From Ostreococcus lucimarinus (lineage: Eukaryota), in NCBI GenBank assembly GCA_000092065.1, contig CP000592.1: 64,000 bases of DNA; one strand, 5' to 3'. Positions 59,380 through 61,890 of this stretch are shown piece after piece; position 1 is the first letter of the stretch; each line of letters opens with the position of its first letter. A program made the position numbers and the translations under genes. The notes under the pieces are model-generated. The model saw only the letters and a list, made by a program, of their open reading frames with translations, was not told the DNA's origin and did no database searches.

Positions 59380-61890
59380 ATGACGGACGTGATCACCATG
59401 TCGTCTTCGTCAGACGATGATCGACCGCCGATCGCACGCGGTGGAGAGGCATCGTCTTCTTCATCGGATGGCGACGCTGGGTTCAATGGAGACGTGTTGG
59501 CGACTGAGTTGGCAAAGATGCCGCTCGCGCTTCGCGCGCAGCTCACCGCCGCGGCCAAGTCTTCGACGAGCACCAACCAGCGCACGCTCGTGAGCGAGTG
59601 GTCGGAGAAGACGAAACTGTCAGTTGATTTGGTAGAAAAAATCTTCGCTTCCTTTGCGAAATCGTCGCGTGCGTCAGCGGAGGCAGCGCGCGAAACCGTC
59701 GCGCGCCTCGCCGCCGCCGACGGAGTCGACTCCGCCGATGGAGACGAGTACTCGCCGGGTGCCGCCGAAGCGGCGACTGCGGATGACGACGCTATGGACG
59801 ACTCGCCGAAAATCCCAGCGTCTAAGCAGCCGGTGCTCGAGGAAGGTGTTCCGTTTCCTGGAATTACTCGAGACGTCTCCGTGGACGTCGCGTGCGGCGA
59901 TCTCAGAGGCGTTCTCGAGCTGAAGAAGGGATACAAGAAACTTCAGGAGCGCGTGCGATGCGAGGGCGAAATGATGACGCCAAGTAAGTTTGAGAGCGAG
60001 GGCGGGCGCGGGTCGGCGAAGAAGTGGAAGATTAGCTTACGCATCGTGCGTTCGGATGGAAAACTCGGGATGACTGTCGGAGACTGGATCGACAGGTACG
60101 GATACCATCCGTCGGGCTTAGTCATAGGTGGGGAGGTGGCCGACGCGCCGGCGCCGCCGAAGGTGAAAAAATCAGCGTTTGAGTCACAGCTAGAGACCTT
60201 ACTCGACTACGATGGGGACATTGCCTTGCGTAGCATCGCTAAATTTGTACGAATGATGCGAGAGACGACCAAGCCTAAGGAACGCGGACTTTTGCTCCAA
60301 GTCATTCGAGGCACGAAAAACAAAGAGTGTTTGCGCCAGTTCGGTCAGTCGGCGGAGATTAAAGGATTAGACACGCTGCAAGATTGGATGGACGACGCTA
60401 AAAGGAAGTTTCAATCCACTCTTTTAGTGAGCATTCTTAGAACATTGAAGATGATTCCAGTTACATTGGACGCGCTCACGCGTACTTCGATCGCCCCGAA
60501 TCTGGGCAAGTTGAAGTCGTACGTGGTGCCAGAGGGTGAAGAGGAGTTTGCCAACACCGAGATGAACACTAAAGTTGTCTTGTTATCCAAGTCGGTCAAG
60601 AACGCGTGGAAAGCGCAAATCACGGCGCCCCACACGGCGCCGGCGCCGGCGCCGAAACCGGCGCCCGTGGTCAACCCGGCGCCCGCGGCGGTGCCCGCGT
60701 CCAAGGCTGTCGAACTCGGTGACGATGACTTGTTCGGTGCGAAGTCGAAAATCTCACCAGCGCCTTCGAAAGCGCCGGTGGTGAAGACCACGGTGACGAA
60801 AATCACGATGGAAAAGAAGGTGGCTCCGCCGAGCGTGACGACGAAGAAACCGAGCGTGAGCGTGAACGATTTGCTCAAGACGAGTTCGCAATCGACGAAG
60901 ATCACCGCACCGCCGGTGAAGACGAAAGAGAAGGCAAAGGACGATGATAAAATCGACGAGAAGACTGGGAAGAAGCGCAAGCGGAAGACGGTGACTTGGG
61001 CGAAGGATGAAAATTTGGAGCAAGTCAGAATCTTTGAGAAGGACGCCAAGCAACCGAAGGAAACGGCTTTCCCAGATCCGACGAGAGACGGTGGGACCGA
61101 TGGCGCAAGCCGCAAGGCGCTCGAGAGGAGAGACAGGGAAGTGGAGGCGGAAAGAAAGGCGGCGGCAAAGCAGCACCAGCGTCGACTCGACGAGATGCGC
61201 GCCACGACAACCTGGCGCCCGCCTCGGCGCATCGAAATTCCTCGTTGGGAAGAGGAAGAGTCGGACAGAGTCCCCGGTGACGAGTCGGAAGAATCCCAGA
61301 GAATTCTTCGCATCGAAGCCGAGAAACCGAGCGTCAAGTACAGGAGTCTGAAAGACATTCCAGACTCTCCGGCGGAGGCGCCGAACGAGGACGCGCAACT
61401 CGACCTCGACAACACGCCAGCCTTCTACATGAAGTTTCAAGAAGAACCGCTGTCTCAAGACAGCGGCGAACCTTCACCCGCGATGCCCCAACAGCTCCAA
61501 ATGCCACAGGCTCCGGGATCGTTACTTCCTCCGAACATCGACTTTGCCGCGCTTCAACGCACGTTGCTCGCCGCCAACGCGCCGCATCAAAACGCCGGTT
61601 ACCAGTACCCCCCGCAGGCGCCTCTTCAACACGCCTTCCCACCACCACCCCCTCAAGCCGCGTACGCACCTCAGCCCCCTTACCAACCCGGCGCGCAACA
61701 GCCCGCGCAGCGACCGACGAAACAGGCGCTCGTCGGCGGCGCCCCCGTGCCCGCGCAGCAGGCGCTCAACCTCAACGGCAAGACGTACCGCGGCGTGTGC
61801 GCCTTCTTCAACACCCCTCGAGGATGCAGCTGGGGAGATAAGTGCGGCTACCTCCACCAAGTCGGCGTCAATCCTCCGTCGACGGGTTGA
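59380..61890 (+). CDS. PNUTS (PPP1R10)-like nuclear PP1 regulator with an extra N-terminal SAND domain. Layout: SAND, TFIIS-N (LW) domain, KRKTVTW PP1-docking motif, C-terminal CCCH zinc finger.
   Basis: SAND: [19 protein letters not shown]...[30 protein letters not shown] (TPxxFE...KNWK). TFIIS-N-like: [18 protein letters not shown]...[29 protein letters not shown]. PP1 motif: [14 protein letters not shown] (human PNUTS GRKRKSVTWPEE). CCCH: [25 protein letters not shown]. Pro/Gln-rich linker. Confidence 0.65.
   Translation: [836 protein letters not shown]

What the first reader, a model, noticed from the sequence alone, without database searches (positions are those of the whole stretch)
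59380..61890. Domain fusion: SAND domain grafted onto a PNUTS-like PP1 regulator
PNUTS/PPP1R10 orthologues are recognised by TFIIS-N, the KSVTW PP1-docking motif and a C-terminal CCCH finger. All three are present here (LLQVIRGTK..., [31 protein letters not shown]). This protein additionally begins with a clear SAND/KDWK DNA-binding domain (TPSKFE...[11 protein letters not shown]), which I am not aware of in animal PNUTS. A sequence-specific DNA-binding module on a PP1/RNA-polymerase-II regulatory scaffold would be an interesting lineage-specific way to target PP1 to chromatin.
Basis: partly seen in the sequence, partly recalled or inferred. Interest (0 to 1): 0.5.

Follow-up and report, generated by a model that had tools for sequence, protein, structure and literature searches.

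The report
SAND domain fused to algal PNUTS
This Ostreococcus gene encodes the alga's version of PNUTS, the scaffold that brings protein phosphatase 1 to transcribing RNA polymerase II, with a SAND DNA-binding-type domain built onto its front end; the fusion is real, is shared by several related tiny marine green algae, and has not been described in the papers searched.

Summary
Window 59380-61890 (+) is one uninterrupted 836-aa ORF.

- **SAND:** passes Pfam's own cutoff (36.3 against 22 bits).
- **TFIIS-N region:** sub-threshold in Pfam, but it matches solved PNUTS N-terminal domains specifically (family profile E = 7e-22; the next TND protein is at 2e-10).
- **Structure:** an AlphaFold model (pLDDT 88.5) gives a SAND fold, a disordered linker and a nine-helix PNUTS-type bundle (TM 0.81 to the PNUTS chain of PNUTS:Tox4).
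- **PP1 docking:** [10 protein letters not shown]...L..V.IF aligns without gaps to the PP1-bound human PNUTS peptide.
- **Zinc finger:** an exact C-x8-C-x5-C-x3-H finger lies 10 residues from the C-terminus.

The fusion is conserved in all Ostreococcus clades, Micromonas, Dolichomastix and an unidentified GC-rich alga. MMETSP transcripts encode a complete orthologue. A syntenic, probably Bathycoccus, orthologue lacks SAND. Animal and Rhodelphis PNUTS also lack it. Plant LUMINIDEPENDENS and two protist relatives carry a homeodomain in the same position.

Best reading: a PNUTS orthologue that carries its DNA or chromatin tether in cis. DNA binding, PP1 binding and any termination role are inferred, not shown. 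Databases annotate the family only piecemeal, and no paper searched mentions both PNUTS and a SAND domain. It is a new variant of a known kind, of moderate interest.

The parts
59380..61890 (+). Complete intron-less CDS of the SAND-PNUTS protein (836 aa, ATG...TGA)
   Evidence: ORF list. The identical protein occurs on contigs in 389 blocks of the public assembly collection; 23 contigs were read. Collinear orthologues of 47-72% identity.
59497..59709 (+). Conserved N-terminal helical motif (aa 40-110, [12 protein letters not shown]...VEKIFASF); function unknown
   Evidence: More conserved than the flanking linkers (0.64 against 0.46-0.51). Retained in the SAND-less orthologue P0123 and recognisable in Micromonas-type sequences. 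No Pfam hit.
59857..60117 (+). SAND domain (aa 160-246), net charge +5
   Evidence: Pfam SAND 36.3 bits against cutoff 22. phmmer hits SP100b at 1.8e-6 and SP140 at 7e-6. The AF2 fold matches DNA-bound SP140 SAND 8j70 (TM 0.65 normalised to target) and GMEB1 1oqj (TM 0.62-0.63). Column conservation is 0.75, close to the TND's 0.80.
60019..60030 (+). KKWK (aa 214-217), the counterpart of the SAND 'KDWK' DNA-binding motif
   Evidence: Aligns to KNWK of Sp100b, KNWR of SP140 and KDWK of GMEB1. [KR]-x-W-[KR] is kept in 14 of the 15 fused orthologues checked; P0119 reads AKWK. K214 and W216 are invariant in Ostreococcus.
60127..60159 (+). Disordered linker between SAND and the PNUTS N-terminal domain (aa 250-260)
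   Evidence: pLDDT below 50 for model residues 97-107. Its length varies from about 10 to about 90 residues among orthologues.
60175..60636 (+). PNUTS-type N-terminal domain: nine-helix bundle (Tox4BD-like helices 1-4 plus TFIIS-N/TND helices 5-9), aa 266-419
   Evidence: PDB PNUTS TND at 3e-6 with the single sequence and 6.7e-22 with the family profile, against SETD2 2e-10, Elongin A 2e-8, TFIIS 9e-5 and IWS1 5e-4. Nine predicted helices, pLDDT above 90. Foldseek top hit is 9ci7_A PNUTS:Tox4, TM 0.81. The nine-helix organisation of PNUTS is described in PMC12278311.
60706..60738 (+). Conserved acidic-aromatic short linear motif [11 protein letters not shown] (aa 443-453); possible TND-interacting-motif-like element
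   Evidence: E445, L446, D448, D450, L451 and F452 are invariant in Ostreococcus. Related DDD[LPM]F motifs occur in Dolichomastix, P0119 and P0132, and a DTDMF variant in P0129. Its function was not tested.
60970..61035 (+). PP1-docking element: basic run plus RVxF plus downstream hydrophobic positions ([22 protein letters not shown], aa 531-552)
   Evidence: Fits the RVxF definition [K/R]-x0-1-[V/I/L]-x-[F/W]. TVTW is identical to human 398TVTW401, which is likewise preceded by a basic run (PMC10731240). The only PDB hit of aa 501-697 is the PP1-bound PNUTS peptide 4moy_B, aligned without gaps (E 0.78). BLASTP to Ptychodera PNUTS gives E 1e-3. V538, T539, W540, L546, V549 and F552 are invariant in Ostreococcus. 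W540 and L546 are nearly invariant across the wider family.
61036..61224 (+). Conserved charged helix and WRxP block after the PP1 dock (aa 553-615)
   Evidence: Together with the dock it is among the most conserved parts of the protein (0.86). The ERQxRExAAExRAA...RRLNEMRA..WRxP block is shared with Micromonas-type and SAND-less orthologues.
61276..61449 (+). Conserved acidic block GxESEE...IPDSPAEAP (aa 633-690), at the position of the WDR82-binding region of human PNUTS
   Evidence: Conservation 0.87. S636 and P668 are invariant across all 12 sequences of A3. A similar block occurs in the homeodomain-type relatives P0165 and P0234. Human WDR82 binds PNUTS aa 418-619, downstream of RVxF (PMC10731240). 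The correspondence is inferred.
61798..61857 (+). C-terminal CCCH zinc finger [20 protein letters not shown] (aa 807-826)
   Evidence: Exact C-x8-C-x5-C-x3-H pattern. Invariant in 11 Ostreococcus sequences. Pfam CCCH models are sub-threshold at 16.6 bits. It aligns to the terminal finger of Ptychodera PNUTS and of P0234.

Best explanation
The gene encodes the Ostreococcus orthologue of PNUTS/PPP1R10, the scaffold subunit of the nuclear PP1 holoenzyme that dephosphorylates RNA polymerase II and its partners and promotes transcription termination. An N-terminal extension has been added to it, consisting of a short helical motif and a SAND domain. The modules are shown by sequence and predicted structure; their activities are inferred. 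The proposed mechanism has four parts. (1) The central [10 protein letters not shown]...L..V.IF element docks PP1 in the RVxF, phi-phi and Phe pockets. (2) The nine-helix N-terminal domain reads disordered motifs of elongation factors, and the acidic block downstream of the PP1 dock recruits a WDR82-type WD40 subunit. (3) The SAND domain, flexibly tethered about 10 disordered residues ahead of the helical bundle, contacts DNA or chromatin through its basic KKWK surface. (4) DNA targeting is therefore supplied in cis, whereas other lineages supply it in trans: the HMG-box protein TOX4 in animals and the base-J binder JBP3 in kinetoplastids. Plants also supply it in cis, through the N-terminal homeodomain of LUMINIDEPENDENS. 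The fusion arose at or before the common ancestor of Mamiellales and Dolichomastigales. It was secondarily lost in a probably Bathycoccus lineage.
For: Architecture: one ORF. Pfam SAND is above its cutoff. PDB sequence hits go to PNUTS TND and to SP100/SP140 SAND. The AF2 model has pLDDT 88.5, with two independent folded modules and a disordered linker. Foldseek top hits are PNUTS:Tox4 9ci7_A (TM 0.81), then DNA-bound SP140 SAND and GMEB1 SAND.

PNUTS specificity: the family profile scores PNUTS 38 bits above any other TND protein. The match covers PNUTS chain residues 9-133, which includes the helices 1-4 that PMC12278311 says are absent from other TND proteins.

Collinearity: three collinear BLASTP HSPs link the protein to a named animal PNUTS: TND 8e-13, RVxF 1e-3, CCCH 0.06.

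PP1 dock: it is identical or near-identical to the structurally defined human motif and invariant among orthologues.

Selection: the SAND columns are as conserved as the TND, and clearly more conserved than the linkers.

Gene integrity: the same layout occurs in O. tauri XP_003082361.2, O. mediterraneus, Micromonas pusilla XP_003054792.1 and Dolichomastix tenuilepis. MMETSP transcriptome ORFs marked complete encode the whole orthologue.

Precedent for DNA-binding modules on this scaffold: TOX4 and JBP3 (PMC10731240), LD (PMC7616277), and the homeodomain-TND-RVxF proteins P0165 and P0234.
Against: No experiment or complex prediction here shows PP1, WDR82 or DNA binding.

Pfam Med26 and CCCH are sub-threshold for this particular sequence. 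The 4MOY peptide hit is not significant on its own (E 0.78).

The KDWK motif reads KKWK. Some SAND domains, such as AIRE's (my own knowledge), bind DNA poorly, so DNA binding cannot be assumed.

The syntenic ~48% GC orthologue lacks SAND altogether yet keeps every other block. SAND is therefore not essential to the scaffold's core role.

The Tox4BD-like helices 1-4 are retained, so SAND need not 'replace' a TOX4-like partner.

Pfam SAND is borderline in Micromonas-type orthologues (17.6-23.9 bits) and undetected in Dolichomastix, P0129 and P0132. In those, only the Ostreococcus-derived sub-profile recognises the region.

No transcript from the window's own species was examined.
Confidence: 0.7

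Rival explanations
1. The protein is a real SAND-PNUTS fusion, but the SAND domain is not a sequence-specific DNA reader. It would act as a protein-protein, dimerisation, nuclear-localisation or non-specific nucleic-acid or chromatin module, so PP1 is not directed to particular DNA elements.
For: The motif is KKWK rather than KDWK, and the second position varies freely (K, N, S, R, L) among orthologues. Basic residues next to KDWK also serve nuclear import in SP100-family proteins (PMC5021326). SAND was lost in one lineage with no other visible change to the protein. Pfam SAND scores decay quickly outside Ostreococcus.
Against: The fold and the K-x-W-K helix match SAND domains solved with DNA (8j70) or mapped on DNA (1h5p, 1oqj). 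The domain has net charge +5. Sp100b itself has KNWK and SP140 has KNWR, so the acidic second position is not required. SAND is conserved about as strongly as the TND.
Confidence: 0.2
2. The protein is primarily a SAND-family transcription factor ('ULT-like', as Micromonas pusilla XP_003054792.1 is annotated) that merely contains a generic TFIIS-N module. On this view it is not a functional PNUTS or PP1 regulator.
For: The M. pusilla orthologue is named 'ult-like transcription factor' and the O. tauri one only 'Transcription factor IIS, N-terminal'. RVxF-like strings are short and common. Pfam Med26 is sub-threshold here.
Against: The ULT1-type SAND model scores only 13.2 bits against a cutoff of 25, while canonical SAND scores 36.3. 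The helical domain is PNUTS-specific by sequence (6.7e-22 against at best 2e-10 for other TND proteins) and by fold, including the PNUTS-only helices 1-4. The RVxF context (basic run, TVTW, L/V/F spacing) matches the crystallised PNUTS peptide and is invariant. TND, RVxF and terminal CCCH are collinear with a named animal PNUTS. JGI's orthology pipeline independently names the family PPP1R10.
Confidence: 0.06
3. The fusion is an annotation or assembly artefact. Two neighbouring genes, a small SAND protein and a PNUTS homologue, happen to lie in the same frame without an intervening stop.
For: High-GC genomes produce long spurious ORFs, and several overlapping ORFs of 100-375 aa are listed in this same region. 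No transcript of the window's own species was inspected. One short Logan contig was uninformative.
Against: The junction (aa 247-265) is continuous and alignable in 11 Ostreococcus clusters of 50-72% identity, and in Micromonas-type, Dolichomastix and P0129 sequences whose DNA composition differs greatly (48-69% GC). De novo transcriptome ORFs from MMETSP (O. mediterraneus, Ostreococcus sp. RCC789, Dolichomastix) span SAND and TND. The SAND-less orthologue still has the conserved N-terminal helix motif joined to the TND in one ORF, so the N-terminal extension belongs to the PNUTS gene.
Confidence: 0.03

Closest known systems
Animal PNUTS / PPP1R10 (PTW/PP1 complex: PNUTS-TOX4-WDR82-PP1)
   Same: Both have a nine-helix N-terminal domain (Tox4BD plus TND). 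Both have a central basic run followed by a TVTW RVxF motif, with the L, V/Y and F positions at the same spacing. Both have a long disordered middle and a CCCH finger at the extreme C-terminus, all in the same order.
   Different: The animal protein starts directly with the helical domain, whereas the alga has about 265 extra N-terminal residues including SAND. Animals obtain DNA binding from a separate subunit, TOX4 (PMC10731240, PMC12278311). The alga lacks the RGG repeats that PMC12278311 describes in animal PNUTS and has a P/Q-rich tract instead.
Arabidopsis LUMINIDEPENDENS (LD), the plant Ref2/PNUTS equivalent acting with APRF1 (WDR82) and TOPP4 (PP1)
   Same: Both are green-lineage PNUTS-like scaffolds with a TFIIS-N domain in a largely disordered protein (PMC7616277). 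Both carry a DNA-binding-type domain N-terminal to the TND. That LD has a homeodomain is my own knowledge. The homeodomain-TND layout was seen here in P0165 and P0234.
   Different: The grafted domain is a homeodomain in LD and SAND here; no homeodomain is detected in the window protein. The alga keeps a textbook RVxF motif and a CCCH finger. Whether LD has these was not examined here.
Kinetoplastid PJW/PP1 complex (PNUTS-JBP3-Wdr82-PP1)
   Same: It is a PNUTS scaffold with an RVxF motif whose complex contains a dedicated DNA-binding component, linking PP1 to Pol II termination at defined DNA sites (PMC10731240, PMC7055916).
   Different: DNA recognition (of base J) is carried out by a separate protein, JBP3. 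LtPNUTS is small (264 aa) and has no recognisable domains apart from the RVxF motif.
Canonical SAND-domain regulators (SP100/SP140, GMEB1, DEAF1/NUDR)
   Same: Same fold, and the same TPxxFE...[KR]xW[KR] core.
   Different: In those proteins SAND is combined with PHD, bromo, MYND or HSR/CARD domains. It has not been reported with a TFIIS-N domain, a PP1 dock and a CCCH finger; no paper in the library mentions both PNUTS and a SAND domain.
Existing database entries for the same family: O. tauri XP_003082361.2 'Transcription factor IIS, N-terminal', M. pusilla XP_003054792.1 'ult-like transcription factor', and JGI 'protein phosphatase 1 regulatory subunit 10'
   Same: These are true orthologues of 47-64% identity (Ostreococcus) or about 30% identity (Micromonas-type), with the same architecture.
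   Different: Each annotation names only one module. None states the combination, and 'ULT-like' is not supported (SAND_ULT1 13.2 bits against a cutoff of 25).

Membership tests
PNUTS / PPP1R10 | N-terminal nine-helix domain: PNUTS-specific helices 1-4 (Tox4BD) packed on a TFIIS-N (TND) five-helix bundle | tested here: met
   phmmer against PDB PNUTS gives 3e-6. The family profile gives 6.7e-22 over PNUTS chain residues 9-133, and the next TND protein scores 2e-10. The AF2 model has nine helices with pLDDT above 90. Foldseek hit 9ci7_A has TM 0.81. The definition comes from PMC12278311. Pfam Med26 alone is sub-threshold here (17.2 against 20.6) but passes in orthologues.
PNUTS / PPP1R10 | Central RVxF PP1-docking motif preceded by a basic run and followed by phi-phi and Phe positions | tested here: met
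   [22 protein letters not shown] fits [K/R]-x0-1-[V/I/L]-x-[F/W]. It aligns without gaps to the PP1-bound peptide 4moy_B. It is invariant in Ostreococcus, and an RVxF-type motif is kept across the family. This is a sequence-level test only.
PNUTS / PPP1R10 | Physical binding and regulation of PP1, and a role in Pol II dephosphorylation and termination | not testable with these tools
   This needs co-IP or AP-MS, phosphatase assays and transcript read-through analysis. No multimer prediction tool was available.
PNUTS / PPP1R10 | WDR82-binding disordered region downstream of the PP1 dock | tested here: inconclusive
   Strongly conserved blocks at aa 553-615 and 633-690 lie at the corresponding position and recur in P0165 and P0234. 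No significant pairwise similarity to animal PNUTS was found in this stretch.
PNUTS / PPP1R10 | CCCH zinc finger at the extreme C-terminus | tested here: met
   Exact C-x8-C-x5-C-x3-H at aa 807-826 of 836. It is invariant and aligns to the terminal finger of Ptychodera PNUTS. The Pfam CCCH models are below their cutoffs.
SAND domain (PF01342) | Profile match above the curated threshold | tested here: met
   36.3 bits against a gathering score of 22, E 4.4e-9, aa 167-223.
SAND domain (PF01342) | SAND alpha/beta fold | tested here: met
   The AF2 model has pLDDT of about 90 or more over most of the domain. Foldseek hits are SP140 8j70 (TM 0.65), GMEB1 1oqj (0.62-0.63) and Sp100b 1h5p (0.59), each at prob 1.00.
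SAND domain (PF01342) | KDWK motif on the basic helix | tested here: met
   KKWK aligns to KNWK (Sp100b), KNWR (SP140) and KDWK (GMEB1). [KR]-x-W-[KR] is conserved in nearly all fused orthologues. The second position is K rather than D.
SAND domain (PF01342) | DNA binding | not testable with these tools
   This needs EMSA, PBM or DAP-seq with aa 154-250 and KKWK mutants.
LUMINIDEPENDENS-type (homeodomain-TND) PNUTS-like proteins | N-terminal homeodomain upstream of the TND | tested here: not met
   No homeodomain family appears at E up to 10 in the window protein. In contrast, P0165 and P0234 from the same profile search do have one. The relationship is therefore analogous in layout, not membership.
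ULTRAPETALA-like SAND proteins | ULT1-type SAND domain (PF23292) | tested here: not met
   13.2 bits against a cutoff of 25, while canonical SAND scores 36.3. The 'ult-like' name of the Micromonas orthologue is not supported.

The most novel reading that the evidence does not exclude
In the extremely compact genomes of Mamiellophyceae, the Pol II termination phosphatase may be positioned by direct, sequence-specific DNA reading. The SAND domain of PNUTS would bind a short motif at gene boundaries and deliver PP1-WDR82 there. That would be a DNA-encoded 'stop here' signal, analogous to base J and JBP3 in kinetoplastids but built into the scaffold itself. Ostreococcus would then be a tractable system for testing how PNUTS complexes are targeted to chromatin.
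Probability: 0.15. Interest if true: 0.7.

Novelty: new variant of a known kind. Interest (0 to 1): 0.42.

Why it matters
How PNUTS-PP1 is brought to the right places on chromatin is an active question. Animals use TOX4 and MYC, trypanosomes use a base-J reader, and plants use LD together with chromatin modifiers. A lineage in which a DNA-binding-type domain is covalently built into PNUTS is a natural experiment on the same theme. It comes with an internal control, a sister lineage that lost the domain, and O. tauri is transformable (my own knowledge). It also corrects three inconsistent database names for one gene family. Together with the homeodomain versions, it shows that DNA-binding modules have been grafted onto the N-terminus of PNUTS more than once. 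The finding is a domain-architecture variant inferred in silico, so its weight depends on experiments not yet done.

Tried and rejected
1. **Two-gene or ORF artefact:** rejected, because the junction is conserved across genomes of 48-69% GC and complete MMETSP transcripts exist.
2. **Hidden SAND exon in the SAND-less orthologue:** a six-frame hmmsearch with filters off over three 8.5-kb syntenic loci found nothing (best score 1.5 bits). The loss is real.
Uninformative.
4. **AlphaFold-database fold search for other two-domain proteins:** the library was not available.
5. **Transcript evidence from short Logan contigs:** the one contig examined (L009, SRR11106616) also carries part of a neighbouring gene, so it looks genomic. 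The tool reads only the longest contigs for the exact protein.
6. **'ULT-like transcription factor' reading:** rejected on the SAND_ULT1 score.
7. **Generic TND protein (IWS1, Elongin A, MED26, SETD2):** rejected on relative scores and on the PNUTS-specific helices 1-4.
8. **Whether the roughly 40-aa insertion inside the SAND core of P0129 and P0132 is an unspliced intron:** no clean GT-AG boundaries were seen, though a GC...CAG intron is possible. Unresolved.
9. **Literature:** no paper holds both 'PNUTS' and 'SAND domain'. The 'SAND domain' plus Ostreococcus and the ULTRAPETALA plus Micromonas searches gave only transcription-factor catalogue and YABBY papers. A broad PNUTS-plus-algae search did not discriminate.
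10. **Organisms behind P0129 (GCA_013565555.1) and the Micromonas-like clusters P0118-P0120, P0122 and P0124:** they could not be named with the look-ups available.

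
Full report
**1. The observation**

Window 59380-61890 (+) is a single ORF of 836 codons from ATG to TGA. In-frame stops lie immediately upstream, and no earlier start codon exists. The overlapping ORFs on other frames and strands are the usual by-product of about 60% GC DNA.

**2.

- Pfam SAND (PF01342) scores 36.3 bits against a gathering cutoff of 22 (E 4.4e-9, aa 167-223), a clear pass.
- Med26/TFIIS_N (PF08711) scores 17.2 against 20.6, a narrow fail.
- The CCCH models reach at most 16.6 bits against a cutoff of 24.6.
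- The ULTRAPETALA-type SAND model scores only 13.2 against 25.

It was the PNUTS side that needed more work.

**3. Is the helical domain PNUTS-type?**

A plain phmmer search of the PDB puts four PNUTS N-terminal-domain entries on top (9ci7, 6zv2, 6vti and 7lqt, E 3e-6 to 1e-5, query aa 270-380). SP100 and SP140 SAND domains follow.

A profile of the SAND-TND region from 11 diverse family members raises PNUTS to E 6.7e-22 (81.6 bits). Other TND proteins trail far behind: SETD2 2e-10, Elongin A 2e-8, TFIIS 9e-5, IWS1 5e-4.

An AlphaFold2 model of aa 154-420 is confident (mean pLDDT 88.5). It shows a beta-rich module with short helices, a linker with pLDDT below 50 (aa 250-260), and then nine helices. 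Foldseek against the PDB returns the PNUTS chain of the PNUTS:Tox4 complex first (9ci7_A, TM 0.81 normalised to the target). For the N-terminal module it returns the DNA-bound SP140 SAND domain (8j70, TM 0.65), GMEB1 (1oqj) and Sp100b (1h5p).

[quoted passage not shown] The algal match begins at PNUTS residue 9 and has nine helices, so it includes that PNUTS-specific part.

**4. The PP1 dock and the rest of the scaffold**

The PDB search of aa 501-697 gives a single hit, the PNUTS peptide crystallised on PP1 (4moy_B). [24 protein letters not shown] aligns without gaps to [24 protein letters not shown]. At E 0.78 this is not significant alone, but several points add weight:

- The motif fits the RVxF definition, and TVTW is identical to human 398TVTW401.
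- It is preceded by a basic run, as in the human protein (PMC10731240).
- L546, V549 and F552 occupy the columns of human L407, Y410 and F413.
- V538, T539, W540, L546, V549 and F552 are invariant in 11 Ostreococcus clusters.

BLASTP against a named animal PNUTS (Ptychodera flava PPP1R10-like, P0215) gives three collinear HSPs: TND 8e-13, RVxF region 1e-3 and CCCH 0.06. The animal TND starts at residue 15, so algal aa 1-265 has no animal counterpart.

Downstream of the dock lie two of the most conserved blocks of the protein, aa 553-615 and aa 633-690. They sit where human PNUTS binds WDR82 (aa 418-619; PMC10731240). That correspondence is an inference.

**5. Is it one gene?**

The exact protein is encoded on contigs in 389 blocks of the public assembly collection. 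The homologue search found 19 clusters of 47-100% identity, all of similar length and collinear. They include O. tauri XP_003082361.2 and O. mediterraneus A0A7S0Z9A7. They also include MMETSP transcriptome ORFs flagged 'type:complete' (827 aa), from O. mediterraneus and Ostreococcus sp. RCC789.

SAND columns are conserved at 0.75 and the TND at 0.80, against 0.46-0.54 for the linkers. This indicates purifying selection on both modules in one reading frame. I obtained no transcript from the window's own species.

**6. Distribution**

An exhaustive HMMER search of 1.84 billion representatives with the full-length profile gave 426 hits. I mapped the modules on the best 148 with sub-profiles.

- **SAND followed by TND (usually also RVxF and CCCH):** 13 further 50%-identity clusters. 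These include the Micromonas pusilla cluster (XP_003054792.1, annotated 'ult-like transcription factor'), Dolichomastix tenuilepis (MMETSP0033, a different order of Mamiellophyceae), several unnamed Micromonas-like marine clusters, and a 69% GC sequence from NCBI assembly GCA_013565555.1.
- **PNUTS-like without SAND:** Rhodelphis marinus, the hemichordate Ptychodera, and many unnamed eukaryotes.
- **One informative exception:** P0123 (850 aa, abundant in marine metagenomes, about 48% GC) sits in a locus syntenic with the window. In both, a gene of about 600-660 aa and a Macro/CRAL_TRIO gene follow downstream. P0123 keeps the N-terminal helix motif, TND, RVxF, the middle blocks and CCCH, but it has an acidic tract where SAND should be. 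No SAND-like sequence occurs in any frame of 8.5 kb.

I infer that P0123 is Bathycoccus and that SAND was lost there. The organism name is an inference from GC content, synteny and abundance.

**7. A recurring theme**

Two hits from the same search, P0165 and P0234, have a Pfam homeodomain upstream of the TND. Both also carry RVxF motifs (KKRVNW, KKKRVSF) and a P[DS][TS]P.EPE block. P0234 also has a terminal CCCH finger.

Plant LUMINIDEPENDENS has been shown to act with APRF1 (WDR82) and TOPP4 (PP1), and that paper treats it as the plant equivalent of Ref2/PNUTS (PMC7616277). That LD has an N-terminal homeodomain is my own knowledge.

In animals the DNA-binding HMG protein TOX4 binds the PNUTS N-terminal domain. 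In kinetoplastids the base-J binder JBP3 is called its counterpart (PMC10731240). Attaching a DNA-binding module to this scaffold, in cis or in trans, is therefore common. SAND is a new choice of module.

**8. Mechanism, and what is shown versus inferred**

Shown by sequence and predicted structure:
- A SAND fold with a KKWK motif aligned to K[DN]W[KR] of SP100, SP140 and GMEB1, with net charge +5.
- A flexible linker.
- A PNUTS-type nine-helix domain.
- A canonical PP1 dock.
- Conserved acidic and charged blocks.
- A terminal CCCH finger.

Inferred:
- PP1 and a WDR82-type protein bind as in PNUTS.
- The SAND domain contacts DNA or chromatin through the KKWK helix. This is the established DNA-binding surface of SAND domains (Bottomley et al. 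2001, as cited in PMC5021326).
- The protein therefore tethers the phosphatase module to chromatin in cis.

Points that limit confidence:
- SAND was lost in one lineage.
- The Tox4BD-like helices are retained, so a trans partner may still exist.
- The second motif position varies.
- Pfam SAND scores are weaker outside Ostreococcus.

**9. Novelty**

The family is already in databases, but each entry names only one module: 'protein phosphatase 1 regulatory subunit 10' (JGI), 'Transcription factor IIS, N-terminal' (O. tauri) and 'ult-like transcription factor' (M. pusilla). Precomputed Pfam lists show both domains for two clusters.

No paper in the searched library mentions both PNUTS and a SAND domain, and related searches found nothing relevant. 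I class it as a new variant of a known kind: a PNUTS/LD-family scaffold with a different DNA-binding graft.

Interest is moderate. A specialist in PP1-PNUTS or in algal transcription would find it a neat, testable natural experiment, but it is not a new kind of system and every functional step is still inference.

Noticed in passing
window 13542-25139 (+) and 25594-34689 (+): Two giant PI3K-like kinase genes lie side by side on the same strand. One is DNA-PKcs-like (3865 aa; DNA-PKcs_N, CC1/2, CC5, FAT, PI3_PI4_kinase and FATC domains). The other is ATM-like (3031 aa; TPR_ATM, FAT, kinase and FATC domains). Both sit in a block of about 48-51% GC, while most of the rest of the window is 54-69% GC. 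Why these two genes have such different composition is unexplained. Land plants are generally said to lack DNA-PKcs (my own knowledge).
   Followed up: partly
window 60706-60738 (aa 443-453, [11 protein letters not shown]): This is a strongly conserved acidic-aromatic short linear motif between the TND and the PP1 dock. Related DDD[LPM]F motifs occur in Dolichomastix, P0119 and P0132, and a DTDMF variant in P0129. It resembles the acidic/aromatic motifs that TFIIS-N domains read. It could be an intra- or intermolecular TND ligand.
   Followed up: no
window 59497-59709 (aa 40-110): This N-terminal helical motif ([12 protein letters not shown]...VEKIFASF) has no Pfam match. It is conserved across the family and is retained even in the orthologue that lost SAND. 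Its function is unknown. It shows that the N-terminal extension of algal PNUTS is more than just SAND.
   Followed up: partly
loci L011-L013 (gene at 3001-5553), protein P0123: This is the syntenic orthologue in a ~48% GC marine picoalga, probably Bathycoccus. It has every block of the protein except SAND, which is replaced by an acidic low-complexity tract. It is a natural SAND-deletion control.
   Followed up: yes
proteins P0165 (922 aa) and P0234 (1216 aa) from the profile search: These are homeodomain plus TND plus RVxF PNUTS-like proteins from unidentified eukaryotes with N/Q/S-rich sequences; P0234 also has a CCCH finger. This is the same layout as plant LUMINIDEPENDENS, so a homeodomain may have been grafted onto PNUTS more than once or very early.
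   Followed up: partly
proteins P0130 (1640 aa) and P0131 (2334 aa): These proteins carry six SAND-like repeats each and come from unidentified organisms. Such multi-SAND architectures are unusual.
   Followed up: no
window 62185-63990 (+): The downstream neighbour is a 601-aa, highly charged, coiled-coil-like protein with no Pfam hit at E 1e-3. Its C-terminus contains 'LSWHPDKFEQKYG', which resembles the HPD motif of a J-domain. A gene of similar size occupies the same position in the Bathycoccus-like loci.
   Followed up: no
locus L010 (NCBI GCA_013565555.1, JACCDP011248501.1), protein P0129; also P0132: In these 69% GC algal orthologues the SAND core is interrupted by a non-conserved insertion of about 25-40 aa at the same position. 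It may be an unspliced in-frame intron, but no clean GT-AG boundaries were seen. The organism is unidentified.
   Followed up: partly
window 58900-58990: A short run of degenerate GGATTG/GCGTTGGATT repeats lies in the intergenic region about 400 bp upstream of the start codon. It was seen while reading the 5' flank.
   Followed up: no
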